Shown here one piece after another: positions 3,835 to 64,000 of a stretch of 64,000 bases of DNA. The notes under the pieces are model-generated. The model searched no databases, was not told where the DNA came from, and saw only the letters and a program-made list of their open reading frames with translations. This stretch comes from Tubulanus polymorphus (lineage: Eukaryota; Animalia; Nemertea), in NCBI RefSeq assembly GCF_964204645.1, contig NC_134027.1, positions 17,632,560 to 17,696,559 of the forward strand, in the 5' to 3' direction. Numbering within the stretch: the stretch's first letter is position 1; the number at the start of each line of letters is the position of its first letter. Both the position numbers and the translations under genes were made by a program.

Positions 3835-4097
3835 TCAGAATAAACATAACTAGTTTCGTCTATTTAGCAGAATCGCATTAATGAGGTTTAACAGTACAAA
3901 TAGCCTAGGCTAAATCGTTCGGCAGAAAATAAATTCATTTTCAGGAATAAAATCGTACTAGACTAATAGACCTTTAAGTCTGTGGTCCTCCCAATCAACA
4001 TCGTCATAGAAGATTTGCCGGCAGATGTAAAACATTATAACCACTTAATACCACAGTATAATCTACCAATGCTTCAAGGCCCATGGGCCTCTTGTTG
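3835..4097 (+). repeat. Interspersed repeat ending in a stem-loop (Helentron/HINE-like 3' end); second copy at 31810-32068
   Basis: Clear similarity to 31810-32068; both end in caaggccca(t/w)ggc...ttgtt. Confidence 0.7.
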
Positions 4098-13818: not shown

Positions 13819-14034
13819 TTCTCCCGGCCCAAAACAATAGAAAACATTAGATAATAATGATAGTTTAGCATCGATAAAGTTTTAATAGCAATGAAGTCTA
13901 CGCTGAATAATTTCACTTTTAAACGAGCGTTGATCACAGAAAACTAGCCGTACCGGTATTGAGGTATAACGCAAATATCGCAACACAATAACACCATTCG
14001 TTCGATTGTGTAAACCTAAAGAGGTTTACAGAGA

Positions 14035-14279
14035 GGAGAGAATCCCACAATGATAATAAAAAGTCCGAAAATGAAACTTCGAGATAGTAGTTTATTTCAA
14101 CGTTTCGACTATATCCTAATAGTCATCTTCAGGAATAAGGATATAGTAAATATATATTAGGATATAGTCGAAACGTTGAAATAAACTACTATCTCGAAGT
14201 TTCATTTTGGGACTTTTTATTATCATTGTGGGATTCTCTCCTCATCGCGTCAACACGGATATAGTGTTCTACCAATCGT
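14035..14279. mobile_element. Penelope-like inverted pseudo-LTR insert
   Basis: ~87-bp inverted arms (14033-14120 / 14156-14243), flanked by the 14-bp duplication gaggtttacagaga (14021-14034, 14280-14293). Confidence 0.7.
14090..14138 (-). ncRNA. Minimal hammerhead ribozyme motif (Penelope/retrozyme type)
   Basis: Minus strand reads CUGAAGA-ugacua(uuagga)uaguc-GAAAC-GUU: conserved core, stem II, and palindromic ACGU stem III. Confidence 0.6.
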
Positions 14280-29049: not shown

Positions 29050-31148
29050 ACAGAATAACACCAGCAAAAAACAATTTGAAATAAAAAAGTTAGTTGATGT
29101 TACAAAAGAAATTGAACATAAAGTATTAAAATTAGAAAAGATAAAAACTAAATATGGAGATAATATATCAGCAAATTTAAGTTACCGTAATGTTAGTACA
29201 ACGCGAGAATTTAAAGTATTTTTACCTGATAAATGGGTTTCATTGAGTACAGAGGAATTAACAGATTTAGAGGGATTTAAAATAATCTATCATGGAAAAA
29301 ATGAAGACGGTCATCATGATTTAGAAGTTGTTTATTAAATAAAAAATAAATTGATAATAAAATTAATTAAATATTAAGAATCCGAAATGACTTATTTAGA
29401 CGATTCAATTGATCGAGGCACTGACGAGAACGATTGATAGCGTGTTTGCTATATACAGGGGGAAGGTGACCGTGCTCATATGATCCAGGTTCATGCAAAT
29501 TGTTTTTTCCTAATAATGGGAGACATTGAGTACCAGACAGAAAAAAAATGATGTTAATGAAAATCAATATGATTGTACATATTGTAAAAAATACATTGAT
29601 AAATCTAATAAAAATCATTTAAAAAAATATTATTGATTTTGAAACTGCAGAAAATTCCAATGAAAGAAAAGAACAATTAGAAAATATAAAAAAAAGATGA
29701 AATTAAATGTAATGTAATGAAAAAATATTTGATGAATTTAAATGTCATATTGAGGAAAGATATTTTGAGGGTTCTGGTTTAACATTGAATGAAATTATAT
29801 TTTTAGATTTAAATATTTATAATACAAAAAGAAATAAAACATCAAAAAGTAATAAAATGTTTAAAAATGATTCAAACTTTACAACTGAAAAGGATATTAA
29901 AGCATCATCTTATATTAATTTACCATTTACAACAAAAGTAGTAATAAATGTTCAAAATGAAGATAATAAATGTTTTCTATGGTCAATTATAAGTTGCTTA
30001 CATCCAACAGAAGAACATGGTTATAGAATAACAGATTACCGGAAATACGAAACATTATATAAAATTGATCAATATCCAGTAACTATAAAGATGATTCCTA
30101 AAATAGAAAAAGTTAATAATTTGAAAATAAATGTATTCGAATTAATGCAATTACCAGAGACAAAAGGTGAAAATATTAAGGATTATACATTAGAAGCTTT
30201 ATATTTAACAGAATATTATGATGATGAAAACGTTATAGATTTGTTATATTACAAAAAAAGATGAAAATGAACACTATATGTGGTTAAAACAAATGTTAAA
30301 AAATGTTAGAAAATGTTTGTCGAAATTTATGACTGAGAATGCATTATTAAGACATAAAGAATTATGTGATAATAAAGATTTTTGTAAATTAATAATGCCA
30401 ACAAAAAAAGATTGTAAGTTGAAATTTATTAATCATAAATTTAAAAATATAGTGCCATTTGTAATTTATGGGGATTTTGAATCGTTGAATAAAGAATTAA
30501 CTGATCAAGATAGAAAAGAAATATACAATAACAAGCAATTTTTTAAAATCAATGGAAAAAGGAAATGAATTAAATGAAGACATAATTCAAGACCCACCAA
30601 TTATATACACAATTTAAAAAGTTCATCAAATAGCTGCTGCTTATGGAATTTATATAAAATAAAATTATCCTGAATTATATGAAAATCAATATATTTCTTT
30701 TAGAGGTGAAGATGTAGTAAATGAATTTTGTAATAAAATAATTGAATTAGAAAGTGATTTTGCAAAATAATTAAACAAAAATAAAAGAATAGTTATGACA
30801 AAAGATGAAATTGATTTTAATTATGCAACTCATTGTTGTTACTGTGAAAAACGTTTTTATTCATCTGATAAAAAAGTTAGAGATCATTTAAAATATACAA
30901 ATGTAGAATAAGATTTATTAAAAGAACCAGACATGGTTTTATTATTTGATAAATCAATTAGAGGTGGAATAAGTGGTGTTATGGGAGATATTTTAAATCA
31001 AATGATGAATATAAATTATTGTATATTGACGCCAATAATTTATATGGTTGGGCAATGATGCAACCTCAACCATATAAAAATTTTATGTTTACAGATGTTG
31101 AAAATGATGATAGAACTAATTGGGAAAGCGCAATTATGAGTTTAGAAG
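29050..31148 (+). mobile_element. Decayed Maverick fragment: homolog of ORF 57236-57577 followed by internally deleted pPolB
   Basis: KTKYGD...FKVFLPDKW...GKNEDGHHD; then ASSYINLPF, INVQNEDNKCFLWS, VPFVIYGDFES, IRGGISGV, YIDANNLYGWAM. Confidence 0.88.
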
Positions 31149-32068: not shown

Positions 32069-33495
32069 TCTGCTGCCGGCATATCGGGCCTCGCTTACGC
32101 GAGATATTTTGAGTGGAATCAGAAGATTTGGCTTCTAAACATGATACGACTTACGTGAAAATACGACTTATGAAGTACGAGCTTTAAGCATAATTGTATA
32201 TATGTGATGATAGCCACTTTGTTTCCTTTATGCTTGGAGTAATCATTTTGTCAAATGATTACTCCAAGCTTTATGCAAGATCAAGTCATAATACATTTAA
32301 ACATGCAGATTTGAAAAAGTGAGAGCGAAAGTTATATTTCTGTCTGAATTCAACATTACGTTTACAAGCTGTTAGTAGTCGAATCTGAGAGGAGATACAT
32401 TTTATGGAACATTTTTTGCTGGAAAGGGGAAAAGAAATAATGAAAACCCAAATCATAATAATCACAAGGAAAACAATAGTGTTTTACCGATGACGGTCAG
32501 AAAACCCTGAATAAAAACACCATTGATTCGTATAGATTAGAAATTTTTAAAAACAGCTATTCAACAGGAGCTGATTCACAGTGCATCCACGCAGCACAAC
32601 CGTACGAGTAAATAAGTAATTTACCTTTTACCAAATCGTGTCCAGTGAGATCTGAATGCCAGGCCAGTGTTATTGAATCCTGTGGTTTCGCATTTGTGTA
32701 ATAGTATTGCATATTGTTAATTCATTATTCATTGGAACATATTAAGAAATGTATATGTTATTTTTCTAGGCCTTTCAACTTGGTTCTTTTTTTCTGTTCA
32801 TATTTTTCAGCCACCTCCACCATCTTATTATGACTCTACATTGATGGACACTTAATCATGATAGATTTGACTACATAACTACATTACACGAATGGAAAGG
32901 ATTTCATGCAGCATTTAGAAAAACCATTAATCCATTGTCTCTGATGACTATTAAGCACTTTTCAGGTCATTGGCGGCAGCTTACATGAATGACAATTATT
33001 CACTACTCTAACCTGATTGTTTTGTGTTAATGATATGATAACATTAAGTTGTATTAAACAATAAAGAATGTATGGTAGATTCGGTCTACATTCATTCTCA
33101 TTGATGACATTAAAGTTTTATATAGTATATAGTATGTATGTCAAAACCCTAAGTAAGAATCCCTCATGTAATAATCCCCTGAAATTAAGTTTTACATCAA
33201 ACTTAGATAAAGAATAGATGATAGATTTTCAAAGCTACTATCATGACAATCTTGATGCATGTAACTTGCTAAAAGTAAAAAATAATGTGATTTCTATGCA
33301 TGTAGCCTGCTTAAAGTCACAGATTATCCAAGGTGAAAATTGTAACCAACACAATGGAGAATTTAAGATATTGAAATCTATATAAGTTGTGCAATGTTTG
33401 TATATTGAAATGCAATTTATTATTAATGTTTGTAGCATCCTCCCTCAGTTGGATTCGAACGGTGTTGTCATATCGCAGAATCACGCATTCACAGA

Positions 33496-34930
33496 ATTTT
33501 CATAGTCGTGTGTATTTTAGAATAAATATTTATTCTAAAATATTAATAATTTTAATTTCAAAAGCATATTGAAATTAAATCAAATGGTCGCTCCGCTCCC
33601 AATTGATTTAATTTCAATACACGATATAATAGATTTAATCATATAAATCTAATAATATTAATTATTTTGTTAATTATTACCAAGGAATACACACGACTAT
33701 GAAAATATATTGTAGTGTGGAATTAAAATTACTTTTTATATTTGTTTTTTTATTCACTCAACCTTTCAACCTCCGATATAGAACAACACAGTTACAATTA
33801 CTCTAATATTTTATATATGAAAATCATATTAATGAATAACATATAATGAAATCAATCTTAATAAAAAATTTATATAATAAATGGAGAGTAAACAAGTACA
33901 CAGTGAGAACAACAAATCATTCTTAGATAGAATTAAAGTTACTACAAATGCTAAATCTGTAGATTATAAATTTAAAAAGCTAACTGAGTTAACAATTCAT
34001 AAGAAATGTTTAATTACTAATATTGAAACAACACTAAAAAATATGGTAATAAATTAATAATTCATTTAGAATTTGAAGGATTGAAAGGTAATGAATATAA
34101 ATTCAGAACATATTTTACAGATAGATTTCATCGATTATCTAGTGAAGATATTGAAGAATTATATTCTGGTGATTTCTATTTCATATATAAAGGTAAGAAT
34201 AAAAAGGTCACCATGATATAGATTTCGAATAAAAAATATGTAAAATAAATTTTGATAAAACATTTATATTATAAATGTAACCAAATAAGAAGTACTACTG
34301 TCCAACATGTAAAATTAATACAGATAAATCTCAAAAAAGCAAGACATAATAAAACTAAATCTCACTTAGAAAATAAATTGAAATTAGGATATAAAGATGA
34401 TATATTTGAAACTAAATTAGAAGAATTGGTGAATGATAAAGAACTATATAAATGTGATACATGTAATCAATCATTCAGTAACAAAAGATAAACAACATTT
34501 AAAATCTAAATATCATATTAGAAATATTGATAATGATATTTTAGGTGTAAATAAGTTTGATAAAGATAATAATAATAAACAAAAGATAATAAGAAACATG
34601 AAAAATAAATTGAACAATAAAAGACCATATATGGAAGATGTTAGAATTTATATTAATTCATTAGATGATAAAAAAGATATAGAGATAACTGAAGCATTTA
34701 AAAATGATATTGATCCAGCAGCTATTGAATTTAAATTTCACAAAGGTAAGACGTTTGAAGAAATAAAAAACATTTAGAAAATATGAATGATATAATGAAA
34801 ATAATTACAGACGTAGAATACCCAAAAATTAGTATATCTGTTAAAGTAAGATTTTTAAAATCTGAAGATAAACCAATTTTATGATATTAACTCCCATTCG
34901 CAACGCATTATTTCTGCTCAGCATATAGAT
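33496..34930 (+). mobile_element. Decayed Maverick terminus: branched hairpin, promoter, MESKQ-gene homolog (33881-34232) and pPolB N-terminus (~34275-34930)
   Basis: MESKQVHSE...VDYKFKKLTELTIHKK; KARHNKTKSHLENKLKL, PYMEDVR, PAAIEFKFHKGKT match the pPolB at 57606-61631; many frameshifts. Confidence 0.9.
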
Positions 34931-40836: not shown

Positions 40837-41374
40837 ATAAAAAATCGCAGCGTATCTGTCCTCCAAAATTTGCAGATGACAGGGCCATCATTTTCACGAA
40901 TAGCTTCTCACCTGGCAAGTTCTTGCAGACCCGTGAATATTACTCCGATGGAATAATTCAATTTAAAATCTTCACCTTTCTTCTTTTTAAACTTTCGGCA
41001 GCTTTCTGAACTATACCACGATCCATCTGCAAATATTTACATGTATAATTTTTTTTTCAAATTTTTTACTTCAGAAACTTGCATTAGAAAAAACCGTTTA
41101 CAATACAAAAAGTGACATAATACCTGGGATATCATCAGCTGATATGCCAACGCAACTAAAATGGAACCAGCTACCTCTCGTGCAGTTTTCATTGTCGCAC
41201 CCGATTATCCCACCGGTAGACCCAAGATCGTTCTTACATATGCAGTACGGGTATTGTTTCCGGCGACATTCATCGGAACAATACCAGTCTCCAACTAAGT
41301 CATCCGCATTAAGATCCATGCACGTTAAATGGAATGTTTTGCAAAATGTATTTGCACAGTCTACTGTCGGTTCC

Positions 41375-41486
41375 TCGTCTCCTCGAAACCAAAGGAAAAG
41401 TGTGAATTGAAACCCATAATTGAGGATTGGTTTCGTCTCCTCGAAACCAAAGGAAAAGTGTGAATTGAAACCCATAATTGAGGATT
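41375..41486. repeat. 58-bp tandem duplication spanning a splice acceptor
   Basis: tcgtctcctcgaaaccaaaggaaaagtgtgaattgaaacccataattgaggatt occurs at 41375 and 41433. Confidence 0.9.
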
Positions 41487-44227
41487 TTTGTATTGAAGTT
41501 AGATTAAAATTTACCTTCATTACATATACAGAACGAATCTTCTACTTCATCTTTGAGGATTCTGCGAACATTAGCCTCATTTCCTCTGGCCATACGAAAT
41601 CAACAATTTCGCCAGCGAATCGGCGCAGGAAATTTCGTCGGTCTTCTGGGGTGGTTAGTCTAATCGGTGGGGTAGCATCGATCGTATCCATTGCAAGTAG
41701 ATGTAGCGCTAAAAGAACGACGAAGGAATGCGTTGCGAACCGAAGAAATTCCGACGTGTGATTGAATGTTTCTCCAACGTCCTTTTTCACATTGTGATGG
41801 CCAAAGACGTTCCTGATGTGGGCTAGAGTCCCACGTTCGGCGACACTCGAACCCTTAAAAAATTCGTTCATTACGTCCTAGAAAGAAATATAATTTGGCG
41901 ATGAACAAAATACTTAATATTGGGTAGGTATTAATTTGAATTATTTTACACACCTGCATCAGGAGCATTCTTTTGTGGAATTCCTGTGGGGCCGGCTCCA
42001 ATCCCTCCAAACGATTCCATTGATCATTCGAATTGAACCGCGCGTTTTGTGCGTCATTATGTCGCTCGCACGACAAGCCATCACCCCAACACACAATGGT
42101 GGCTGGTGATCCATCCGATAATTTTGGAATATACTGTTGCAGGTTTTCTAAGATTTTTATCACACAAGCTATCGAAGACGGGTTCTCTTGGAAAACACCT
42201 AGATTTGTCTGGAAGCAAAATTGAAATGAATGAAATTGAGAAAAAAATGAAATGCGATGGTGAAAAATTCTGAAAATCCAACCTTACCACATTTGATTTC
42301 AGTGAAGACTCATCGAATCGATCATGGCTTATATGTTTGATGACGAAATCACCGCAGTTTTGTCTGAAGAAGGGGATGTACTTGCACGGAATGCGTTGAA
42401 CAATCACACCCATACGGAACTTTTCGCTCCGGAAACAATCATCGTCGGGTAGGAAAATCTCCGTTTTCATGTCGGTCGCTTTCTTCCGTTCTCCGTTGCT
42501 GATTACGTTCATGGTATTAATACGATTCGTGCATAGGTACGACAGGGCCCATAATTGGAGTTTGTTTCCCTTTTCGAAGTTATTGTGTCGTGTCACCTGT
42601 CTTAACGTAACGTTGTCCCAACAAATTGTCATACCTGTAGCTACAAGAAAGTAATTATACAATTACATTTAACGGTTAATATCACTGGTAGATTTTGATA
42701 ATATGAAACATGGCATATGCTATTTATACATTGAACTCATTTCACTTACGCGAAATGTTTGTTGACTCAAACAACGAGGAACTGCTATCACTATCTACAC
42801 TTTCACCAGCATCGGTTTCGGATTCTTCCGGAGTCGGCGAACGCGATTCTTCGTTTGAACTATTGGAAGACGTTTCAGTGTTTGACTCGGCATCATCCGA
42901 TGTGGCCAGTTTGCTACTGTCAACTAGAAATACAATATAAAATTGATATCGTATGTCGAAAATGGATGAAAACTGGCACTACTGATTTGCGTTCAAAACT
43001 CACCCTTTGCTGATTGTTGGCGAGGGGCTTGCGGTTTCGTCAAAAAATCTTCGAGTTCTTCTCTTTCGAATTTGTGACATGCGACTCTTGCAAAACATCA
43101 ATCATCATTCTGGTCTGTTGGTGGCCGAAACACAAACCAACGTAGCTGAACATTCTGAAAAGCTAAAAAAGTAATACCGATTAGCAAGGTAAAAGAAATA
43201 CTAAATGAAATTCGTTATTATGTATAAATGGTGAATTACTTTTTGTGAGCAGCCTGCTCTCCACATCTTGGCAGAATTGCACTGCTGAATGAACTTAAAC
43301 GTCCGTGGATGTCGAGTATTAAGAAGTATAGCCAATGCCATTCCCATCGCTGGAAATACATGCCTGTTTTTGAGGCTACCACTGAAATAAAAACATATCA
43401 ATATTTATCAGACTCAACGCTGGTTTTGCTCTAACACGTGTTTTTATAATTTACTTACCTTAAAACAGAATCGTTGAGAGGTCTCTTTAGGGAGACATAT
43501 TTCAGACACGCGTAAAGTGTCGGAGCTTTGGTTTTAACGCAGTCTAATGTGTCGGCCCAAGAAAACGAATTTAGGTCTTCAATGGTTCACAGCTCTTTTG
43601 CCAAATGAAAATCCTTTTCTTCTTTCAGACGTTTCACCTCTGCCGCTCTATTTTTAGTCACAACGTTTATCATCGCTTTTTTCGCCGCACTCGATCGTTT
43701 GAATATGAATCTGAAGCCGTGTTTGTATCGGCTGTCTGCGATATATTTAGAAGCTCGATGAGACGCTTTGATATTTGAAACCTACAAAATATAGAAAAAA
43801 TTATATACAAACTAATGAATTAGACTAAATTCGTTTTCATTGTATAATTTTTCGAACGATTTTTGTACAACGGAAAAAATTGTAAACATTAAATATTTGT
43901 AAACATTTTAAATAGATTACATAATTATGGTGCGAACACAGTCCCTCAGAGTAGTTTCTCAATATAAAAGGGTATCCAGGGCCGTCCCACGTACGTGCGA
44001 ATACATTTGAATTTAAGGAGCCCCCTTCTAAATACGGCCGTGGAATTTTTCAAAATGCTTTGTTTGACGACGAAAAATGTACCAGATTTACGCGGGATTG
44101 TGATAATGTAGCTATCATATGGGTATTATTTAGCTATCGCATGATTACTCTAAGCTGAACAGTGTCGTATTTGATGATTTTAATATCGAAGTGAAAATCA
44201 GAATACACGTACATATGGGTTCATGTG

Positions 44228-44688
44228 AGTAATAGGGGTAATAGGCTTTCAGATCAAAGGTCGAACGGTCGAGCTCGTAAAAAATGAAAAACATAAAAAT
44301 AATTACAATTTCTACTTGAATTACTCGTGAAACTCATAAAAATGAAAAATGAATTCTCACACGCTCGAATTTATTTTTCATTTTATGAGTTTCACTCCTA
44401 ATTCAAGTAGAAATTGTAATTATTTTTATGTTTTTTCATTTTTACTCACCCGCCCGTTCAACCTTTAACCCGAAAGCCTATTACCCCTATTACTCTGAAA
44501 ATATTCATATATATGAATAACATTTAAATCATTGAACTTCTAAAATCAATTTTAATAAAAAATATAGTATTAAAATGGAAGCAAATAAGTACTACTGCCC
44601 AACATGTAATATCGATATAGATAAATCCCAAAAAGCAAGACACAATAAAACTAGAACACATTTAGAGAATAAATTGAAACTAGAATAT
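44228..44688 (+). repeat. Left terminal inverted repeat, including the terminal palindrome 44228-44494
   Basis: Reverse complement of ~61518-61927, extending through the first 38 codons of pPolB. Confidence 0.93.
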
Positions 44689-44904: not shown

Positions 44905-45711
44905 ATGGAGCCGGAACAATCACAAGCTATAAATATAAACAATAATGGTGTAATAAATATATATCAGAAGACATGTTATAAGTGTTAAATAAATAAGCCA
45001 TTTACAGAATTTAATAAACATAAAAAAACTAAAGATGGTAAAAGTTGTTATTGCAAAACTTGTAATAAACTATATAATAAACAATATCGAGCAAATAATC
45101 CAGAAAAATATAAAGAAAAAGATAAACAATGGAGAGAAAATAATCCAGAAAAGTGGAAAGTTTATAATAAACAATGGAGAGAAAATCACCCAGAATATAT
45201 GAGAGAATGGAGAGAAAATCACCCAGAATATATGAGGGAATGGAGGGAAAATAATAGAGAGAATATAAACAATTATCAAAATGAAAAATATGAAACAGAT
45301 CTAAATTTTAAAATGAAAAAATGTTTGATAAATAGATTAACACAATTATTCAGTAAAGACAGTCACTCATACACACTATCTAATTTACTAGATTGTTCGG
45401 ATGAATTCTTCAAATCATGGATAATATTTCAATTCGATGATAAAATGAATATAAATAATTATGGTAATTATTTTCATATTGATCATGTGTTGCCTATTTC
45501 TAAATTTGACATGAATGATGAATATGATAAAAAGTTAATTTGGAATTGGAAGAATTTAAGACCTTTAGAAAAGAAAGAAAATAAAATAAAATTTAATAAA
45601 CTAGATTTACAGTTATATTTAGAACAGTTAACAAAGGCAAAGAAATTTATTGATCAATGGAATAATAATCCAAATAATGAACAATACGTTGAGTCTTTAA
45701 TGAGTGGTTAA
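44905..45711 (+). pseudogene. NCLDV-type HNH endonuclease with N-terminal CxxC pair and WRENxPE repeats; one in-frame stop near 44986
   Basis: TAAATG start at 44905 is in frame with 45199; KTCYKC...CYCKTC; NYGNYFHIDHVLP.S.FD...WKNLRPL...EN..K. Confidence 0.8.
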
Positions 45712-46952: not shown

Positions 46953-48041
46953 ATGATGAAAAAAGAACAATATTTGAGAGATTTATATTATAACCCAGAA
47001 AGTGAAGTATCATATTCAAGTGTTTCGGAATTATGGGATAAAATTAAATCTGATAAAGAAAAAATAAAATATAGTGAATTAAAATCATGGTTACAAAATC
47101 AACCAACATATCAAATCCACAAGAAAATGGATAAAACTTATTTAACAAGAAAAGTAATGGTTTCATATATTGACCAACAATGGCAAGCTGATTTAATTGA
47201 TATGAAAAACTTAGAAGAACACAACAAAGGATATTTCTGGATACTGAATGTTATAGATATATTCAGTAGATACGCATGGAGTATCCCGATTAAAAATAAA
47301 ACTGGTATAGAAGTTACAAATTCTTTCAAATTAATATTTAAAGAAGCTATCCCAGATAAAATACAATTTGATGAAGGTAAAGAATTTTATAACAAACATT
47401 TCAAAAAACTATTATCTGATAACGATGTAGAATATTTTTCAACACATTCAGATAAAAAAGCATCTGTTATAGAAAGATTTAATAGAACATTGAAAACTAG
47501 AATGTGGAAATATTTCACCGCTAATGAAACATATAAATATATCGATGTGTTAGATGATTTAGTTAAAGGTTATAATAATTCTAAACATAGTTCTATAAAC
47601 ATGAAACCTATACAAGCTAGAAAAGAAGAAAATTCAGAAATAGTTTGGAATAATTTATATGGTGCGTTTGTTACACATGATTTTGGAGAACCTAAATTTA
47701 AAATAGGACAACATGTTAGAATTTCTAAATATAGAAAAACATTTTATAAAGGTTATACCCCTAATTTTACAGAAGAAATATTTAAAATTAAAAAGATAAT
47801 ATTAACTAAACCATTTGTTTATAAATTAGAAGATTTAAAAGATGAAGAAATATTAGGTTATTTCTATGAACAAGAATTATCATTAGTACCAAATCCAGAT
47901 GAAATAGAATACAAAATAGAAAAAGTATTGAAAACAAAAACTCTTAAAGGAAAAAAGTATTCTCTGGTGAAATATAAAGGATATGATGATAAATTTAATG
48001 AATGGATTTTATCTAGTAAAATTAAAAGAATAAATGAATAA
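46953..48041 (+). CDS. Retroviral-type (rve) DDE integrase with C-terminal chromodomain
   Basis: WQADLIDM, IDIFSRYAW, QFDEGKEF, KASVIERFNRTLK; chromo-like YKIEKVLK...LVKYKGYDDKFNEWI. Confidence 0.95.
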   Translation: MMKKEQYLRDLYYNPESEVSYSSVSELWDKIKSDKEKIKYSELKSWLQNQPTYQIHKKMDKTYLTRKVMVSYIDQQWQADLIDMKNLEEHNKGYFWILNVIDIFSRYAWSIPIKNKTGIEVTNSFKLIFKEAIPDKIQFDEGKEFYNKHFKKLLSDNDVEYFSTHSDKKASVIERFNRTLKTRMWKYFTANETYKYIDVLDDLVKGYNNSKHSSINMKPIQARKEENSEIVWNNLYGAFVTHDFGEPKFKIGQHVRISKYRKTFYKGYTPNFTEEIFKIKKIILTKPFVYKLEDLKDEEILGYFYEQELSLVPNPDEIEYKIEKVLKTKTLKGKKYSLVKYKGYDDKFNEWILSSKIKRINE

Positions 48042-48645
48042 AGATTTATTTATATTTGAACCACATAATATGTTAATAACTGGAGTTACAAATTGTGGTA
48101 AAACACACTTCATATTATATTTATTAGAAACTATTTATAAAAATCATTTCGATAATATAATATTATTCTGCCCAACTTATGAAATGAATGAAACGTATAA
48201 TAGAGATATAGTTAAGATAAAAAAGTTTATTATATTAGACCCTAAAACAGTAAAAGATAATTTAGATATTTGTATTAAAATAGCATTAGATATTTATAAA
48301 GGATCTAATACATTATTTATTATCGATGATTGCGCAAATTTACATGATTCTAAAATTAGAGAAAGTGAGTTATGTTATTTAGCTTTCTCTGGTAGACATT
48401 TTGGGATAACAACATGGGTTTTAAATCAAAGATATAATTCAATTGTTAAAGACTTTAGGGAGAATATAAGATTTCTAGTTTTATTCTACAACAAAGATAG
48501 AAAATCTATGCAACAATCATTGGAAGAAAATCAAATTATACCTACTGAATTACATGATGAATATATGAATAAATTAAAAAATAATAAAGGTTCCAAATTA
48601 CTTATGAGATTACAATTTCCATATGAATATAAATTTATAAAATAA
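48034..48645 (+). CDS. A32/FtsK-like genome packaging ATPase
   Basis: Walker A GVTNCGKT, Walker B FIIDD, GRH..ITTW...Q motif. Confidence 0.9.
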   Translation: MNKDLFIFEPHNMLITGVTNCGKTHFILYLLETIYKNHFDNIILFCPTYEMNETYNRDIVKIKKFIILDPKTVKDNLDICIKIALDIYKGSNTLFIIDDCANLHDSKIRESELCYLAFSGRHFGITTWVLNQRYNSIVKDFRENIRFLVLFYNKDRKSMQQSLEENQIIPTELHDEYMNKLKNNKGSKLLMRLQFPYEYKFIK

Positions 48646-48699
48646 CTATTTGTATACCTATATATTAGATACCCTATTAGATATGTATTATATACCTCC

Positions 48700-49260
48700 C
48701 CTAATGTCTTTATTATCATTAGTAGGTTTAGTACTTTTAGTACATAAAGAATAAATCTTTATTTTATTAATACTTTAAAAATAAAATAGAACTACTAAAC
48801 TACTAAAGATAATAAAGACATAACAAACACCATAGATTTATCATTACTGAATCAAATATATATAATAAATATGTGAGATAAATAAATCTATGATATTTAT
48901 TACATCTATATGTGTTTTGTTATGTCTTTATTATCTTTAGTAGGTTTAGTACTTTTAGTACATAAAGAATAAATCTTTATTTAATTAGTACTTAGAAAAA
49001 TAAATATATAAATGATAAATCTATGATATATATAATAAATATGTGTGATAAATAGATTTAATTATTGAAACAGTAATATATAAAATCCATCAGATGAATA
49101 AATATAATTATTGAAACAGTGTTATATATATATTTATGTCTTTATTGTCTTTAGTACTTTAGTAGTTTAAAAAATAATTTTATTCACTACTAATAAAATA
49201 AAGATTTATTCTATATGTACTAAAAGTACTAAACTACTAAAGACAATAAAGACACAAAGG
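48700..49260. repeat. Direct and inverted AT-rich repeat array between the convergent gene blocks
   Basis: atgtcttta..tagtaggtttagtacttttagtacataaagaataaatctttatt at ~48703 and ~48922; inverted copies at ~48792-48825 and ~49195-49255. Confidence 0.8.
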
Positions 49261-49281
49261 GTATTATATTCATATTTTAAA

Positions 49282-50507: not shown

Positions 50508-51754
50508 TTAACACATAACACTATCTAATTGTGAATTTACAATATTTAATTGCGCGTCAGATATAATATAAATGTGCATTTTAAAATTTTTGATTCCCTT
50601 TTTCTTTGTCATGAATAATTGTATTCCATCTTTAGTGTTCTGTAGTTTTTTTCCAGAACCATGTAATAAGTTATCCTCTGTTGTTCTAAAATCTAACCAT
50701 AATGCATATTTATTACCGGTATAATAATCAATTTGATTAATGTTACAATCTTCAGATGATTTTATTTTTTCATTCATAAAATGTTTTTTAATTTCTACCC
50801 ATTGATCAATCATTCTCATTCCTTGACAAAATATTTTATTTGCTATACCTTCGATAGTTATTTCTACTTTTGTTATTTCAGGATTATAATAATTATCAAC
50901 ATTTATTGCGCCATTAGTATACGTTCCAATAGTAAAAATATTAATATACCTTTAATAGATCTTCTAGGAAAGTTAATATTCTCATTAATTATTTCATCAT
51001 TTGCATTAATAGTTACAGTTTTAAATTTATCAATATAATCATATAATAATGAAAACCCTTGATTGTATTGAGTTTGAATTATACTTGAAATATTTTCATT
51101 AGTTACTGTATCATATTCTAAACATATATTCGATAATTTATAACCCATATCTTTAACAACGCTAGATAATACAATTTCATTTACAGGAGCAAATGTTATC
51201 TCAAATATAATATCTTCTTGAATTGCGTATTTATATAAAGGTGCATTATTATTTATCAATTCAAAGTCTAATGGAATTTTATATTTGCTTCCATATATAC
51301 TTTTTATCAATTTATCTACATCATTTGTTAATATTGCGCTATTAGCTTCTGATCTTAATTTATTTTGGTTTTCTGATTGAATTCCTTGAAATATCATATT
51401 ATTTCTATTTTCTTTAGTTAACCATAAATCTTTATAATGTGAAAATAAATTATAATCATCTAATGAGAAAACTGTTTCTGGACCAATCTTTATTGTTAAC
51501 TTTTTAATCAAATATCTTCCAACATTATCAACGACATAATTATTATTATTACCGATTACTTTTATATCAGCTGATAAATAAATACTGTTTGGAACATAAA
51601 AAGTATTTTGTGTTAATCGAGGGATTCTAACGTATAAAGTTTCATCGGGATTAATATTTGAAGGGTTATGAGTAATTATATGATGTGATCTTTCTGCTTT
51701 AATAGCATTAGATATTCTATGATTCTTCGAAGGATTTATATAACTCCCACTCAT
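50508..51754 (-). pseudogene. Putative double jelly-roll major capsid protein, single frameshift near 50935
   Basis: ORFs 50903-51754 and 50508-50819 join into ~415 aa; beta-rich, with I..LTIKIG, IPLDF, I.FEITFA, LSNICLEYD and ALWLDF patterns typical of Polinton-like MCPs (fold not computed). Confidence 0.72.
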
Positions 51755-57235: not shown

Positions 57236-57577
57236 TTATTCGAAATCTATTTCATGGTGCCCTTTTTCATTCTTACCTTTGTATACGAAATAGAAATCTC
57301 CAGAACATAATTCTTCTAGATCTTCACTTGATAATCTATGAAATCTATCTGGTAAATAAGTTCTGAATTTATATTTATTTCCTTTTAATCCTTCATATTC
57401 TAAATGGATTACTAATTTATCTCCATATTTATTAGTAATTGTTTCAATGTTAGTAATTAAATATTTCTTATGGATTGTTAACTCAGTTAGTTTTTTAAAT
57501 TTATAATCTACAGATTTGACGCTTGAAGTATCTTTAATTCTATCTAAGAATTCACTGTGTACTTGTTTACTTTCCAT
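57236..57577 (-). CDS. Small conserved viral protein next to pPolB (possibly OB-fold ssDNA-binding; inference)
   Basis: Homologs beside pPolB in two other copies (29050-29337, 33881-34232). Confidence 0.7.
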   Translation of the reverse strand: MESKQVHSEFLDRIKDTSSVKSVDYKFKKLTELTIHKKYLITNIETITNKYGDKLVIHLEYEGLKGNKYKFRTYLPDRFHRLSSEDLEELCSGDFYFVYKGKNEKGHHEIDFE

Positions 57578-57605
57578 TTATTATACAAATTTTTATTGAA
57601 ATTGA

Positions 57606-60600
57606 TTAACACGCTAAAATCCTTTTCATAATCTCATTTTCTTTTGTTTCTTCTCTTTTGAATTTTATATATTCATCTAAATTGCAACCATAGGCGACTG
57701 TGTGGATTCCATCATCTAAAATATATCTTTTATCATCAAATGGGTTTAGACTTATCTTCTCTATCTCTTCAATATACATTTCATGATCTTCAGATCTTAA
57801 ACATTTCATCTTATGTTTTCTAACTTCTTCTTTGAATATACAATTTATGTAATCTTTGAAATGAATATTCTTTTCAACAACGCTTTTGGTAATTCCTTTC
57901 AATTTCTTTGATTCATGTTCTTTAGTTTTATAACTATACATTTTAGATCTAATACCAATGAACTCTATCATTTCTTCACCACCTAATTCATCTTTGAATT
58001 TACCGGGAACTTTTTTATTATCATTGCTAAACAATTCATGATTTTTAGGATAGTTACTGAAATCAAAATGATGTTTTAATGTTTTTAAATCATCAGTTAT
58101 GTTATCAGTTTTTATCTTTAATATGTAACTGTCAGTATCAAAGTATAGAATTTCTATGTGTTTTTCTCCAAAATGAGGTTGTAATACGTTATAGTAAAAT
58201 TTATACATTAATAACTTTGATAATTCTAAAACTGCAGCTCCAACATAAATTGGTTTATTAAATTTCATTGAAGTTCTTCTCATTTTAACTGCTGCTAAAT
58301 TTTCATCAAATATTCTGTTATCTATAAACTTAGGATATGATTGTAAATGCCTTATCCTTTTACCATTACTAACTAACTCAATATCATTTCTATTTCTTAT
58401 GTTTTCACAAGTCTTACCATAGAATGCATTATTCATTAGTTTGAAGAAATCTTTCTCGAAATCAGTTTTAGCTTCAGTTCTCTGTGTAGTATTAAAATCT
58501 ATATATTTTTCTAACCATTTAGATTGACTGAATGAAATATATCTATGTACTTTTTTTAATATCATTCCTTGTCTCAAATAAAACTTCAACATTCTATAAT
58601 GCACAACGTAATTATATTTATCTTCCTGAGTTACCATTAACTTTTCAGTATGAATATGATTATCGGGTTTAATTCTTTTTTGATAATTTGATAATTCTTC
58701 ATGAGTTACAGTTTTATGTTCGGGACAGTAAGCTAGATTTCTAGATTTGAATTTAATATTTTCAGGGTATTCTAAATCTACAACGAAGAAGTAACCAGTA
58801 TCTGAATCATCTGCAATATCTAGGATTCTTTTCTTCCAATCAAATTTATCAATTTGTAAAACTTCAGTTATTTCAAACATCCCATAAGGTTGTGGTTCCA
58901 TCATTGCCCAACCATAAAGATTATTTGCATCTATGTATAATAATTTATATCCAGGATTATCATTTACATTGAAATATCTATCACCCAATACACCTGAAAC
59001 ACCTCCTCTTATAGATTTTTCAAATAATAGTAATTGATCTATATTTGTTAACAAATCCATTTTTATATTTGTAAATTTTAATCCACAATCCCATGTTAAT
59101 CCCGGTGATGAATAACAATGACAAGGATCAATATTGAAATATTTTAGGTTTACATCTCTAAACCTTTCGAATATATCGGTTAATAATAATACATCTGATT
59201 TTAAATATAAATCTACTAATTGCCCATGATTTTCTATTTTGAAATGATTCCAAATATTCAATGTTCTATTATATACTTTATCTTTAACATATTCATTTTT
59301 TAATTCATCATAAAATTGTTCTTTCAATAATTCAGTTATATTGAAATCATTATGTGATTTATAAAATGAATATGGAATTGCACCTTTATATCTCATTAAT
59401 TGAAAATCATCATTATTTGGGTAGTGTTGCTTTAATATTCTTAATTCATCATCAACTAATGATTTTGATAAGTTATCTAATGAACTATTTAAAAATCTAT
59501 ATGAATCTATAAATCTGAGGCAACCAAATTGGAATGATATATAATTCTCAGATGTTTTAGCTAACATTCTAAATTTATAAGTTGGTATTTTATCTTTTGA
59601 TCTATTTGAATTTAATATTTCTATTTCATTATTAATTTCTTCTATTTTATGACATAACTGTTTGATAAATAAATGTGCATCATATCCAGATAGATTATGA
59701 AATATAACTGGTACAAAATTAATTTTCTTAGCTTGTAAGTTACAATTCTCATGTGCAGCGCCTCTAAACTTTCCATTCAAATAATCATGGTCTCTTACTT
59801 TTTTATCTTTATAATTAAATATCTTTTCACAATAATAACATTTACCTGAAAACACAAATTCTTCTTTATCTTCTTCTGTCATTATAATTTCTATATTTGT
59901 ATTCAATAATTTACTAAATCTTAATTCATATTCAATTAATAAGTCACAAAAATGATTGATAACATTTTCATTTCTATAATCATAATATTCACTTTCAATT
60001 AGTTCTGGATAATCAGATTTAATATATAACCCGAAAGCTGCAGCTGATTGATGAATCTTTTTAATAGTATTTGTTTTTGGTGGTTCATCTGAAAAATCAT
60101 TTTCATTAAAATTTAATTTCTTTCTTTTATAATATATTTCTTTTCTATCTTGATCTGTTAATTCTTTATTTAATGATTCAAAATCTCCATATATTACAAA
60201 TGGTACTTTATTTTTGTAATCATATTTTTTGAATTCTAATATTTTATCTTTTTCATTTGGTAAAACTAATTTACAATAATCATGATTTTCACATAATTGT
60301 TTATGATTTAATAATGTACTTTCATTACTGAATTTATGTAAACATTTTCTACATAGATATATTTTATTATGGTGATCACTTTCTGTTCTAAAAAATAAAT
60401 CTATTTGTTTAATCCACATATAATGATTCTCATAATATAGTATATCTATAACATCATTTGAATCATAATCTTTTGATAGGTATAAAGGTTCTAATGTATA
60501 AGGTTTAATATTATTTCCTTTTGTATTTGGTAATTTGATTAAATCAAATACATTTATCTTTATATTATTATCTCTTTCTATTTTTGGGATGTTTTTAATT

Positions 60601-61631
60601 CTAACAGGATACTTATCTATCTTATAATTATTTTCAAATGGTTTATAATGAGTTAATCTACAAATATTATAAGTTGCAGGATGTAAACAACTTATTATAG
60701 TCCATAGTAAACATTTATCATCTTCATTTTGTACGTTTATAACAGCATTAGTTTTAAATGGTAGTTTGATATAACTTGATGCTTCAATATCAGGTTCTTT
60801 ATAATATGATAAATTATTTTCATCTATTGGTTTTGATTTAGTTAACTTATTATATTTTGTGTTATAAACATGTAAAGTCATAAATATTATTTCATCAAAT
60901 ATTAAACCAGATCCTTCAAAATATTTCTCTTCTATTTTAGTTTTTATTTCATTATAACATTTATTTAATTTATCTTCTATATGTTGTTTAGATATAATAT
61001 GTTGTGAATGAGAATTTATATTATATATTGGTTTATCTTCAGATTTTATAAACTTTACTTTAACTGATATACTAATTTTAGGATATTCAACATCTGTAAT
61101 TATTTTTATTATTTCTTTTATATTTTCTAAATGTTTTTTATTTTCTTCTATTGTTTTTCCTTTATGAAATTTAAACTCGATAGCTGCTGGACCAATATCA
61201 CTTTTAAATGCTTCGGTTATCTCTATATCTTTTTTATTATCTAATGAATTAATATAATTTCTTACATCTTCCATGTATGGTCTTTTATTGTTTAATTTAT
61301 TTTTTATTCTTTTAATTGCGCTTTGTTTCTTATCGTTATCATTATCAAAATAATCTTCACCTAAAATATCATTATTCTTATTTCTAATATGACTTTTAGA
61401 TTTTAAATGTTCATTATAATATCTTTTATCACTGAATGATTGATTACATGTATCACATTTGTATGTTTCTTTTTCATCCTTTAATTCTTCTAATTTAGTT
61501 TCTAATATATCATCTTTATATTCTAGTTTCAATTTATTCTCTAAATGTGTTCTAGTTTTATTGTGTCTTGCTTTTTGGGATTTATCTATATCGATATTAC
61601 ATGTTGGGCAGTAGTACTTATTTGCTTCCAT
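57606..61631 (-). CDS. Protein-primed family B DNA polymerase with N-terminal zinc fingers, vOTU-like region and an EndoVII-like insertion
   Basis: ExoI YGDFES, ExoII FHNLSGYDAH, ExoIII YLKSDV, Pol motifs YIDANNLYGWAM, KLMNNAFYGK, YFDTDS, KMY, KGI; CYYC...RDHDY...HENCN. Confidence 0.97.
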   Translation of the reverse strand: MEANKYYCPTCNIDIDKSQKARHNKTRTHLENKLKLEYKDDILETKLEELKDEKETYKCDTCNQSFSDKRYYNEHLKSKSHIRNKNNDILGEDYFDNDNDKKQSAIKRIKNKLNNKRPYMEDVRNYINSLDNKKDIEITEAFKSDIGPAAIEFKFHKGKTIEENKKHLENIKEIIKIITDVEYPKISISVKVKFIKSEDKPIYNINSHSQHIISKQHIEDKLNKCYNEIKTKIEEKYFEGSGLIFDEIIFMTLHVYNTKYNKLTKSKPIDENNLSYYKEPDIEASSYIKLPFKTNAVINVQNEDDKCLLWTIISCLHPATYNICRLTHYKPFENNYKIDKYPVRIKNIPKIERDNNIKINVFDLIKLPNTKGNNIKPYTLEPLYLSKDYDSNDVIDILYYENHYMWIKQIDLFFRTESDHHNKIYLCRKCLHKFSNESTLLNHKQLCENHDYCKLVLPNEKDKILEFKKYDYKNKVPFVIYGDFESLNKELTDQDRKEIYYKRKKLNFNENDFSDEPPKTNTIKKIHQSAAAFGLYIKSDYPELIESEYYDYRNENVINHFCDLLIEYELRFSKLLNTNIEIIMTEEDKEEFVFSGKCYYCEKIFNYKDKKVRDHDYLNGKFRGAAHENCNLQAKKINFVPVIFHNLSGYDAHLFIKQLCHKIEEINNEIEILNSNRSKDKIPTYKFRMLAKTSENYISFQFGCLRFIDSYRFLNSSLDNLSKSLVDDELRILKQHYPNNDDFQLMRYKGAIPYSFYKSHNDFNITELLKEQFYDELKNEYVKDKVYNRTLNIWNHFKIENHGQLVDLYLKSDVLLLTDIFERFRDVNLKYFNIDPCHCYSSPGLTWDCGLKFTNIKMDLLTNIDQLLLFEKSIRGGVSGVLGDRYFNVNDNPGYKLLYIDANNLYGWAMMEPQPYGMFEITEVLQIDKFDWKKRILDIADDSDTGYFFVVDLEYPENIKFKSRNLAYCPEHKTVTHEELSNYQKRIKPDNHIHTEKLMVTQEDKYNYVVHYRMLKFYLRQGMILKKVHRYISFSQSKWLEKYIDFNTTQRTEAKTDFEKDFFKLMNNAFYGKTCENIRNRNDIELVSNGKRIRHLQSYPKFIDNRIFDENLAAVKMRRTSMKFNKPIYVGAAVLELSKLLMYKFYYNVLQPHFGEKHIEILYFDTDSYILKIKTDNITDDLKTLKHHFDFSNYPKNHELFSNDNKKVPGKFKDELGGEEMIEFIGIRSKMYSYKTKEHESKKLKGITKSVVEKNIHFKDYINCIFKEEVRKHKMKCLRSEDHEMYIEEIEKISLNPFDDKRYILDDGIHTVAYGCNLDEYIKFKREETKENEIMKRILAC

Positions 61632-61927
61632 TTTAATACTATATTTTTTATTAAAATTGATTTTAGAAGTTCAATGATTTAAATGTTATTCATATATATG
61701 AATATTTTCAGAGTAATAGGGGTAATAGGCTTTCAAGCTAAAGGTTGAACGGGCGGGTGAGTAAAAATGAAAAAACATAAAAATAATTACAATTTCTACT
61801 TGAATTAGGAGTGAAACTCATAAAATGAAAAATAAATTCGAGCGTGTGAGAATTTATTTTTCATTTTTATGAGTTTCACGAGTAATTCAAGTAGAAATTG
61901 TAATTATTTTTATGTTTTTCATTTTTT
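61518..61927 (-). repeat. Right terminal inverted repeat, with palindrome truncated by ~51 bp
   Basis: Matches the reverse complement of 44279-44688. Confidence 0.92.
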
Positions 61928-62369: not shown

Positions 62370-62863
62370 TGTTGATTCGACGTTTCGACTATACTGTATA
62401 CTTGGCAACTGCAGGAATACTGAGTATCGACAAAAATTGTGAAATATATATATACCCAGATCAAAGAGACTAATCAAGTAATCAGAAATGATACAAACTA
62501 TAGGAATAATAAACCGTAGAAACAGTTACAAGTTAAACAGATAAAAGAGACAAACTAGGGGATTTATTCAATAATACAATAGAGATATAAAATCAATTGA
62601 TGGATATCAAAGTGGCAAACTCGGGGTAAATTAAATCAAAACAATAGTGCATATCAGTTGAGTTATTGATATTTAATGAATTTATATTTACAGTCACTAT
62701 TGTACTATATAATTAACACCTAGTTTGCTCGTCTTTAATCGGTTTACCTTGTAACTGTTTCTATGTTAAGTTTCCCTTAGCGTTTGTGTGTATTCATAAA
62801 CTCTATTTTAACTTAAATCCCTCTAAATACGTCGAAACATATAGTCGAAACGACGAATCAACA
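62370..62863. promoter_or_regulatory. 24-bp inverted motif pair in the divergent intergenic region
   Basis: tgttgattcgacgtttcgactata (62370-62393) and tatagtcgaaacgacgaatcaaca (62840-62863) match at 23 of 24 positions. Confidence 0.55.
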
Positions 62864-62962
62864 ACTAGTTCTCAAGGAAACCTTTTTCGGACGTTGTATT
62901 TTTTCATTTTTATTGTGGAATCCTCTATTGATAAAACAATTATTCATTCGTTAGTGCACGAA

Positions 62963-63935
62963 ATGTATAAGTGTAAACGTGATGAAGCTGGAAAAACAAA
63001 TTTTGCAAAGAATGTGGAGAAAACTATGTCCAAATTTGGATATAATTTTGTGTTAAAGCCTCAACAAATGAATGTGATAGAATTAATTGTAAAATATCGG
63101 GGTAATGTACTCGCACTTTTGCCAACTGGTTATGGAAAAAGCTCCTGCTACATATTACCACCTTTAGTTCTTGACCAACAAGTGAGTAGTTTATTCATAT
63201 TCATATACATTCTTGTTCACATTAGTATTTTATTTAGTATTGTATTGGTATTGTGTTCACATACATTTTAAATATTCAAATTCGTATTACAGGTGAAAAA
63301 AGGCTCGCATCATATTGCGATCGTAATATCGCCTTTGAGAAGTCTGATGTATGATCAGGTAACGGATTTTAATTCGCGCGGGATTGCCGTCATTGCTTTA
63401 TCCAGTGAAACAACACAATATGAGTTAGAAGGTATGAAATTGAATGACATCTGAAATATACAATTTCCATGAATGTTCGTGCAAATTTTGTATATGTTTT
63501 TTTCATGTATATGTCTAGAATTAGCAAACGGGAAATATTCCATTGTTTACGCGAGACCCGAGATGATATTGAAAAAGAAGTGCCTAGATATGCTTCTTTC
63601 TCCCCAATATCAGAAGGAGGTTTTCCTTGTAGCCATCGACGAAGCCCACAGCATCTCACAGTGTTAAGTGTCATCATGGAAGGTGTAATTAAAGCTGGAA
63701 TGAATGATCTTTACAATTGATTCATCCTATAGTTCCAATACAACTCATTTTTCACTAGGGGTGATGATTTCCGAACCGATTACAGCAAGCTGTCTATTTT
63801 ACGGAGCTTTTTCAGCAACGAATCGACCTCATTTCTTTTGCTGACAGCTACTTCGACAGAAAAAGTAAAATCGGATATCCTGACTTCGATGGCGCTTGAA
63901 GGCGATTGCGGAATCATTGCCGTCGTTCCAGATAG
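62963..63935 (+). pseudogene. RecQ-like SF2 helicase, exons 62963-63181, 63293-63431, 63519-63663, 63759-63935 (continues beyond the window)
   Basis: LPTGYGKS, VISPLRSLMYDQ, AIDEAHSISQW-GDDFRTDY, LLTAT; the exon-3 donor reads TTAAGT instead of GTAAGT. Confidence 0.88.
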
Positions 63936-64000
63936 GTATAGTTTTGATATCAAAATGCAGTTTATTTAAAAATGATCTAGAAATGTTTTACTACTATGTG

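What the first reader, a model, noticed from the sequence alone, without database searches (positions are those of the whole stretch)
44228..44494. Maverick TIRs begin with a ~270-bp mismatched palindrome resembling a hairpin telomere
Seen: AGTAATAGGGGTAATAGGCTTTC at 44228 pairs with GAAAGCCTATTACCCCTATTACT ending at 44494, with long AT-rich stems, bubbles (ttactcgtgaaac vs gtttcactcctaa) and a small loop (tctcacacgctc). The same palindrome with the same bubbles is at the right end (61711-61927). Established: canonical Polintons have simple AG..CT TIRs and protein priming, whereas incompletely paired AT-rich hairpin ends are typical of poxviruses and asfarviruses. Inference: the episomal form has fold-back or covalently closed ends and the provirus is a nicked, unfolded hairpin. 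Because each palindrome is itself bounded by AG...CT, it might also move as a solo mini-element.
Basis: partly seen in the sequence, partly recalled or inferred. Interest (0 to 1): 0.9.

Follow-up and report, generated by a model that had tools for sequence, protein, structure and literature searches.

The report
Hairpin-ended Maverick virus family
A virus-like jumping gene, present in hundreds of copies in this genome, begins with a 267-base stretch that can fold back on itself, and relatives keep that fold with changed sequence, so it is likely a working end signal for the element's protein-primed copying rather than a sealed poxvirus-type end.

Summary
The palindrome is real (267 nt, z -18.9) and is the true end of a Maverick/Polinton family. 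Read depth jumps from about 9 to thousands at 44228, and 1,892 reads run from there into unlike flanks. The right end is its reverse complement, lacking the outer 51 nt. The arms change together: 5 of 11 listed inner-arm variants have the complementary change at the mirror position (permutation p about 5e-6), and a ~58-nt deletion appears in both arms. Relatives keep an AGT...ACT-bounded hairpin with diverged sequence (L002, 257 nt; L034, 129 nt; two partial ones). Poxvirus-style flip/flop isomers were not seen (11 candidate reads), and the polymerase keeps its terminal-protein fold and predicted priming serine (71 of 72 rows). Best reading (0.45): a fold-back origin and end-repair device for protein priming. 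Main rival (0.25): parvovirus-like self-priming with a nick. Solo mini-elements and TSDs remain untested. Terminal palindromes are already reported for protist virophages and PLVs, mostly without pPolB (2026 preprint), and this scan noted similar ends in other genomes. Verdict: new variant of a known kind.

The parts
44228..44494 (.). Left terminal imperfect palindrome (267 nt): outer arm about 44228-44355, loop about 44356-44366, inner arm about 44367-44494; bounded by AGT...ACT
   Evidence: family end shown by reads
44228..44250 (.). 23-bp perfect terminal stem (pairs with 44472-44494); the tip hexamer AGTAAT is shared by the close relatives
44446..44462 (+). Inner-arm pyrimidine-rich motif doublet about 45 and 37 nt from the inner ACT, at the same distance in all four close lineages; candidate protein-binding core (inferred)
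   Evidence: window, 33.8-kb sibling, L002, L003; absent in L034
44279..44688 (+). Left TIR as still paired with the right end (410 nt, 99%); includes the first 38 codons of the pPolB gene
61518..61927 (-). Right TIR
61712..61927 (.). Right terminal palindrome, same isomer relative to the end, outer 51 nt missing
57606..61631 (-). pPolB, 1341 aa, open frame: zinc fingers, terminal-protein domain (predicted linking Ser241), vOTU (Cys/His kept), EndoVII-like HNH insertion (about 585-633), exonuclease and polymerase motifs
46953..48041 (+). Retroviral-type integrase with chromodomain
   Evidence: rve E 5e-9, Chromo E 9e-5
48034..48645 (+). A32-type packaging ATPase
   Evidence: Pox_A32 E 8e-11
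50508..51754 (-). Probable major capsid gene, in two frames in this copy (283 + 103 aa; relatives about 415 aa)
   Evidence: weak Capsid_N hits in 12 of 31 aligned homologues, best E 0.0016
45199..45711 (+). HNH-like ORF next to the left end (motif recognised by eye, no Pfam hit); the frame upstream of it is interrupted by a stop
33495..33802 (+). End of a diverged sibling Maverick in the same window: hairpin core 33495-33706 with inner arm to ATTACT at 33802; outer tip not detectable
   Evidence: (z -10.8)

Best explanation
The 267-nt palindrome is the real, family-wide end of a Maverick/Polinton, and it likely works as a fold-back replication origin and end-repair device for the element's protein-primed polymerase. 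Shown: the family ends at the outer AGT; the two arms change in concert; relatives keep the hairpin, the AGTAAT tip and a motif doublet about 37-45 nt in; the polymerase keeps a terminal-protein fold with its predicted priming serine. Inferred: when strand-displacement copying frees a single strand, its 3' end folds flush onto the inner copy of the tip. That rebuilds a duplex origin locally, without the two ends 17 kb apart having to meet in a panhandle. The terminal protein would prime there. Occasional re-synthesis or mismatch repair of the outer arm on the inner arm would restore eroded ends and make the arms evolve together. The integrase would join the linear duplex at the outer AG...CT, which is why the provirus carries the whole palindrome.
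For: Family end at 44228: depth 9 to 2,657-4,301. Loose ends there: 1,610 reads and 1,892 reads, agreement 0.34, i.e. heterogeneous flanks. Two-sided changes at mirror positions 44238/44484, 44243/44479, 44266/44456, 44295/44427 and 44304/44418, with similar shares on both arms (0.34/0.34, 0.50/0.53, 0.23/0.31, 0.45/0.59, 0.83/0.70). That is 5 of 11 listed inner-arm variants, against 0.4 expected, p about 5e-6; 2 more of the 11 pair with the unchanged partner. Length variants are symmetric: joints 44279>44338 (96 reads) and 44381>44439 (57 reads) remove about 58 nt from each arm; 44327>44393 (117 reads) removes the tip of the hairpin. L002 (pPolB 78% identical) has a 257-nt AGTAAT...ATTACT hairpin, z -13, only 68% like this one (shuffled 58%). 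L034 (35%) has a 129-nt AGTAGT...ACTACT hairpin, z -10.4, 150 nt before pPolB at a GC step. TP domain: the model (pLDDT 83) matches adintovirus and MELD virus pPolBs (E 3e-11, 5e-7) and, weakly, the LF/PAD domain of Y-family polymerases (E 3.5e-3), the fold reported for Polinton TPs (10.1101/2024.03.18.585575, passages). The Ser in the loop before the last strand is kept in 71 of 72 rows, and the vOTU Cys in 72 of 72. Precedent for terminal protein plus fold-back end repair: Streptomyces telomeres (PMC5449611, abstract).
Against: No episomal DNA was seen; all reads are of total genomic DNA, and no step of replication is shown. Variant shares are pooled over reads, so it is not shown that one molecule carries both changes. 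Mis-laying of reads between arms could mimic symmetry at the two central pairs, though less so at the three pairs within 40 nt of an end. Only 40 of 81 variant rows were shown, and 8 of the 19 listed outer-arm variants hit a paired base with no listed partner change. A flush 3' fold-back is just as well shaped for self-priming, which needs no terminal protein. TP conservation is a property of the whole clade and says nothing specific about this end. Only 1 of 90 distant loci showed a clear terminal hairpin, though most hold no recognisable end.
Confidence: 0.45

Rival explanations
1. Parvovirus-like rolling hairpin: the folded 3'-OH primes synthesis itself, giving a transiently closed end. A nuclease (the EndoVII-like HNH domain inside pPolB, or the HNH gene beside the end) nicks at the AG, and the hairpin is unfolded and copied. 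The terminal protein would then be used only for first-strand starts or as a 5' cap.
For: The 3' ACT lands flush on the inner AGT with a perfect stem (23 bp here, 10 in L002, 19 in L034). The HNH insertion keeps D/E-H and C-N in 20 of 20 aligned pPolBs, and such insertions are described as apparently functional (10.1101/2023.08.22.554363, passages). The same model is proposed for protist virophages (10.64898/2026.07.28.741278, section 7).
Against: Hairpin transfer normally yields two isomers. Both ends here are one isomer, and the outer-arm-to-interior joint has 11 reads. Of 13 columns that would mark a flop, only 2 appear among the 40 listed variants, none in both directions. No HUH/Rep hit among 20 ORFs. 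Some parvovirus ends keep one isomer only (recalled), so this does not exclude it.
Confidence: 0.25
2. Non-functional by-product: an end was once copied back on itself, and TIR homogenisation plus host repair of cruciforms keeps it symmetric without any role.
For: Bubbles vary between copies and even between the two ends of this copy. Hairpin length varies from about 130 to 270 nt. Both in-window ends that lost their tips broke inside the palindrome. The preprint offers accidental annealing as an alternative.
Against: The hairpin recurs in lineages whose pPolBs are 78% and 35% identical. It is always flush with the AGT tip where the tip is present, and the motif spacing is kept in 4 of 4 close lineages.
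Confidence: 0.12
3. Poxvirus/asfarvirus-type covalently closed, incompletely paired telomere, copied through concatemers and resolved into flip and flop forms.
For: AT-rich stem with extrahelical bubbles and an A32-type ATPase. An EndoVII-like domain could resolve junctions.
Against: No flip/flop mixture seen. Terminal protein and vOTU are retained. The palindrome stops exactly at AG...CT with host DNA beyond, instead of running on into an inverted interior as at a concatemer junction (L002 flank unlike its interior). No resolvase or protelomerase family hit in 20 ORFs.
Confidence: 0.08
4. The hairpin and its bubbles are mainly a packaging or integrase-assembly signal, not an origin.
For: Vaccinia telomere mismatches are needed for virion maturation, not for DNA synthesis (PMC8956199, abstract). 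This element has an A32-type ATPase and a probable capsid gene.
Against: Many of this copy's mismatches are paired in a large share of sibling reads (6 listed variants pair with the unchanged partner), so particular bubbles do not look required. In a duplex genome the hairpin would have to extrude.
Confidence: 0.1

Closest known systems
Mavericks/Polintons (pPolB + RVE integrase; vertebrate survey PMC8097293, passages and section 7 read)
   Same: pPolB, integrase, ATPase, probable capsid gene, about 17.7 kb, 410-nt TIR (mean 402 in that survey), AGT-type tip
   Different: Each TIR opens with a long palindrome that has a second, inverted copy of the tip; 'palindrom' and 'hairpin' occur 0 times in that paper's main text. 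The tip is AGTAAT, not (AGT)2. No maturation protease was identified here.
Terminal palindromes of Halocafeteria seosinensis virophage subtypes 1, 2, 5, 6 and PLV subtype 4 (bioRxiv 10.64898/2026.07.28.741278, section 7 read)
   Same: Palindrome inside the TIR, at the very end, in an RVE-integrase element; hairpin priming proposed
   Different: Those are short (52 nt in subtype 5) and said to go preferentially with non-pPolB replication genes. This one is 267 nt, imperfect, in an element with a pPolB that keeps its terminal-protein domain, and shows arm co-variation across hundreds of copies.
Streptomyces telomeres (Tpg/Tap end patching; PMC5449611, abstract read)
   Same: Terminal protein priming together with fold-back of the 3' single strand; truncated ends repaired by extension on the fold-back
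   Different: Bacterial, several short palindromes, internal origin, separate Tap primase. No homology is claimed; working analogy only.
Poxvirus flip/flop hairpin telomeres (PMC8956199, abstract read)
   Same: AT-rich imperfect hairpin with loops; structure matters more than sequence; A32-type ATPase
   Different: Covalently closed, two isomers, no terminal protein, no integration. Isomers were not seen here, and the TP is kept.
Parvovirus/AAV terminal hairpins (recalled, not read)
   Same: 100-400-nt terminal palindrome whose 3' end could self-prime
   Different: ssDNA genome with an HUH Rep nickase and host polymerase; none of these found here.

Membership tests
Maverick/Polinton | Protein-primed family B polymerase | tested here: met
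   1341-aa open frame with exonuclease and polymerase motifs, 3,844 homologues among 7,993 candidates; N-terminal fold matches adintovirus pPolBs
Maverick/Polinton | Retroviral-type integrase | tested here: met
   PF00665 E 5.4e-9, above cut-off
Maverick/Polinton | Packaging ATPase | tested here: met
   PF04665 E 8.2e-11
Maverick/Polinton | Major capsid protein | tested here: inconclusive
   Gene in two frames here; 415-aa homologues; weak Capsid_N hits in 12 of 31; no PDB sequence match
Maverick/Polinton | Adenovirus-like maturation protease | tested here: inconclusive
   No Pfam hit among the 20 ORFs scanned; could be diverged, broken or absent
Maverick/Polinton | TIRs with AG...CT ends | tested here: met
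   410-nt 99% TIR; left tip AGT is the family end; right tip missing in this copy
Maverick/Polinton | 6-bp target-site duplication | not testable with these tools
   Right tip is deleted; the 6-mer before 44228 does not recur after 61900; no genome held; no related locus had both hairpin ends
Poxvirus/asfarvirus hairpin telomere | Incompletely paired AT-rich hairpin | tested here: met
   68.5% AT, 13 mismatched columns
Poxvirus/asfarvirus hairpin telomere | Flip and flop isomers in about equal amounts | tested here: not met
   Same isomer at both ends; 11 candidate flop reads; 2 of 13 diagnostic columns among 40 listed variants, 41 rows hidden. Integrated copies only.
Poxvirus/asfarvirus hairpin telomere | Covalently closed ends of the free genome | not testable with these tools
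   No episomal DNA data
Poxvirus/asfarvirus hairpin telomere | No terminal protein; concatemer resolvase | tested here: not met
   TP fold and predicted linking Ser retained; no resolvase family hit except the EndoVII-like insertion in pPolB, below cut-off
Parvovirus-type rolling hairpin | 3' end able to fold back flush as a primer | tested here: met
   Perfect terminal stems of 23, 10 and 19 bp
Parvovirus-type rolling hairpin | HUH Rep nickase | tested here: not met
   No such Pfam hit in 20 ORFs; HNH-type candidates only
Solo palindromic mini-element (MITE-like) | Copies with host DNA and a TSD on both sides of the palindrome | tested here: inconclusive
   No loose-end cluster behind 44494 among the 6 listed (so under 427 reads, against 1,892 at the outer tip), but outer-arm depth is about twice inner-arm depth

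The most novel reading that the evidence does not exclude
A widespread clade of animal Mavericks replicates by a hybrid route: a protein-primed polymerase with a built-in EndoVII-like HNH domain self-primes on terminal hairpins and nicks them open at the AG. That would be a rolling-hairpin, integrating, double-jelly-roll virus, a living link between protein-primed linear genomes and hairpin-telomere viruses, and it would give the unexplained HNH insertion of these polymerases a job.
Probability: 0.2. Interest if true: 0.85.

Novelty: new variant of a known kind. Interest (0 to 1): 0.58.

Why it matters
How Polintons copy their ends has not been shown; the standing model has the two TIRs anneal into a panhandle for protein priming. 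Here a pPolB-encoding family has long terminal hairpins whose arms co-evolve and whose shape survives deep divergence. That gives a concrete substrate for testing priming in vitro. It runs against the one published suggestion found here, that terminal palindromes go mainly with non-pPolB elements, and it points to a possible role for the nuclease domain inserted in these polymerases. In practice, such ends also confuse boundary calling: a second inverted tip lies 267 nt inside each end.

Tried and rejected
No genome is held, so copy ends, TSDs and solo copies could not be counted directly. The viral-contig scan with the single protein found nothing. A blind scan for AGT...ACT-bounded 10-bp stems in 93 loci plus the window gave 29 hits against 15-18 in shuffles, so it is little above chance. 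I kept only L002 and L034, for tip motif, position before the first gene, GC step and fold z, and dropped the other loci's hits. The L041 hairpin was rejected: it is an insertion inside pPolB that sibling loci lack. The L014, L029, L047, L053 and L054 hairpins were set aside as probable host repeats: no AGT...ACT tip before pPolB. L006 and L026 have long inverted repeats with no such hairpin and no clear Maverick tip. A possible outer-tip remnant of the 33.5-kb sibling was not significant (16 of 277 background windows scored as well). L003's partial hairpin alone is weak (z -2.1). The single-sequence fold of the pPolB N-terminus failed (pLDDT 41). The protein atlas and the wide structural search did not complete, so the capsid call stays weak. 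Literature: 7 of 10 searches bore on hairpin ends or the polymerase. They found no report of long terminal hairpins in pPolB Mavericks of animals. Passages of PMC11296320, PMC12220804, 10.64898/2026.10.13.758929, 10.1101/2022.07.28.501842 and 10.1101/2022.05.25.493380 held nothing on it. Kapitonov and Jurka 2006 and Repbase entries were not read, and bioRxiv supplements were not seen; they may describe such ends.

Full report
Observation. 44228-44494 folds into one long hairpin (DNA, -93 kcal/mol, z -18.9, 0 of 200 shuffles). It has a 23-bp perfect stem at its base, 86% arm-to-arm identity and 13 mismatched columns. It opens an element of about 17.7 kb with lower GC than its flanks. The element encodes an integrase, an A32-type ATPase, a 1341-aa pPolB and a probable capsid gene that lies in two frames. 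The right end, 61712-61927, is the reverse complement within a 410-nt, 99% TIR. It is the same isomer relative to the end, lacks the outer 51 nt, and differs in one bubble. With the right tip gone, no TSD can be read. The flanks carry DUF6589 and PHD fragments on the left and a DEAD helicase fragment on the right. That suggests insertion into another transposon of the Academ type (name recalled; one search gave a listing only).

Is the outer arm the real end? Yes. No genome is held, so I laid reads. Four of the 5 runs listed were laid, and one of them again. In raw reads of a second study (about 12% of the run read), depth is about 9 just outside and 2,657-4,301 just inside 44228. 1,892 reads leave the reference there into sequence with 0.34 agreement, i.e. 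many different flanks (1,610 at a stricter setting). Depth runs on unbroken from the inner arm into the interior (1,911 to 2,049). Against a mean flank depth of 6.3, this is roughly 490 outer ends and 290 inner junctions, but only about 8 copies of the interior at 45048-45088. These numbers are rough, since the flank may not be single-copy. Most ends thus belong to other subfamilies or deleted derivatives. Contigs of two other runs cross this very host junction with 0 and 2 differences, so it is not an assembly artefact.

Do the arms evolve together? One search listed 40 of 81 variant rows; 11 lie on the inner arm. Five have the complementary change at the mirror position on the outer arm, with similar shares (44238/44484, 44243/44479, 44266/44456, 44295/44427, 44304/44418). 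Random placement gives 0.4 on average, p about 5e-6. Two more pair with the unchanged partner; four are unexplained by the full-length register. Against this, 8 of the 19 listed outer-arm variants change a paired base with no listed partner change; hidden rows may or may not hold those partners. Length variants are symmetric too: about 58 nt missing from the outer arm (96 reads) and from the inner arm (57 reads), and a 65-nt loss centred on the loop (117 reads). Caveats: shares are pooled, not per molecule. Reads laid on the wrong arm could mimic symmetry, mainly at the two central pairs; 104 of 9,992 reads fitted two places.

Is the hairpin conserved? Of 3 close relatives (pPolB 76-78% identical), L002 has a complete 257-nt hairpin, AGTAAT...ATTACT, z -13, with a GC step outside it and only 68% identity to this one (shuffled 58%). 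L003's contig starts inside such a hairpin (weak alone, z -2.1). L001 lacks the region. A diverged sibling in this window (33495-33802) has a different hairpin core, z -10.8, without its outer tip. These four lineages share the ATTACT inner tip and a motif doublet about 45 and 37 nt from it. Among 90 distant loci, one, L034 (35%), has a 129-nt AGTAGT...ACTACT hairpin with a 19-bp stem 150 nt before pPolB, z -10.4. Most of the others hold no recognisable end, and the blind scan as a whole was near chance (29 vs 15-18), so this is not a frequency.

Flip/flop and priming. A poxvirus-type telomere predicts two isomers. The joint from outer arm to interior has 11 reads. Only 2 of 13 diagnostic columns appear among the listed variants, none in both directions. 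This concerns integrated copies only. The pPolB N-terminus, modelled on 72 sequences (pLDDT 83), matches adintovirus and MELD virus pPolBs and weakly the Y-family LF/PAD domain (best E 3.5e-3). This is the fold that 10.1101/2024.03.18.585575 (passages) assigns to Polinton terminal proteins. Ser241 lies in the loop where that paper places the linking residue and is kept in 71 of 72 rows; the vOTU Cys is kept in 72 of 72. The polymerase also carries an EndoVII-like HNH insertion (PF02945, E 6.5e-4, below cut-off) with D/E-H and C-N in 20 of 20 rows. Such insertions are described without a known role (10.1101/2023.08.22.554363, passages).

Mechanism. The 3' strand of either end can fold so that its last bases pair flush with the inner copy of the tip. 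I read this as a locally rebuilt origin for protein priming on displaced strands, doubling as a template to repair eroded ends (0.45; all replication steps inferred). The analogy is Streptomyces telomeres, where fold-back and terminal protein work together (PMC5449611, abstract). The same geometry allows self-priming and nicking, parvovirus-style (0.25). A neutral by-product (0.12), a packaging or integrase signal (0.10; vaccinia precedent, PMC8956199, abstract) and a closed poxvirus-type telomere (0.08) rank lower. Solo 267-bp elements are neither shown nor excluded.

What is known. A 2026 preprint reports palindromes inside the TIRs of protist virophages and a PLV (52 nt in one subtype), mostly with non-pPolB replicases, and proposes hairpin priming (10.64898/2026.07.28.741278, section 7). 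A vertebrate Maverick survey does not mention palindromes or hairpins in its main text (PMC8097293). My searches found no report for pPolB Mavericks of animals; the founding 2006 paper, Repbase and preprint supplements were not seen. This scan's own notes list similar terminal hairpins in other genomes (unchecked). The feature is therefore a new variant of a known kind. What this case adds is family-wide read evidence, arm co-variation, cross-lineage conservation and co-occurrence with an intact-looking terminal-protein domain.

Noticed in passing
window 48690-49270: Nested inverted and direct repeats (about 590 nt, 69% self-complementary) in the gap between the convergent gene blocks of the element.
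   Followed up: no
window 44575-44688 and 57236-61631; L001, L002, L003: Gene order differs from close relatives. In L001-L003 pPolB runs straight into the HNH and integrase block. Here pPolB sits at the other end, its first 38 codons are duplicated in the left TIR, and the 113-aa gene lies after pPolB rather than before it, which suggests an end-to-end rearrangement.
   Followed up: partly
window 1-1503, 29716-31075, 33495-34929: Three more Maverick fragments (69-88% like the main element) in the same 64 kb.
   Followed up: partly
window 41098-42662 and 62717-63969: DUF6589, PHD and DEAD-helicase fragments on either side of the Maverick, pointing away from it: probably one Academ-type transposon split by the insertion (family name recalled).
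   Followed up: partly
L002:948-964: A second direct copy of the first 17 nt of the terminal hairpin lies just upstream of pPolB.
   Followed up: no
window 61927; joints at 44279: The right-end truncation falls at the base of the long perfect stem, the same short AT-rich repeat where the family's 58-nt arm deletions start.
   Followed up: no
window 44376-44384: 80 reads show an opposite-strand joint here, possibly a subfamily with a differently placed hairpin tip.
   Followed up: no
L029-L093: 65 loci with Polinton-type pPolB were found in contigs filed under bacterial or archaeal MAGs, probably host or viral DNA binned by mistake.
   Followed up: no
window 14033-14243: A 211-nt near-perfect palindrome (89%) in host DNA, with a 36-bp perfect stem from 14086; not similar to the Maverick end by blastn.
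   Followed up: no
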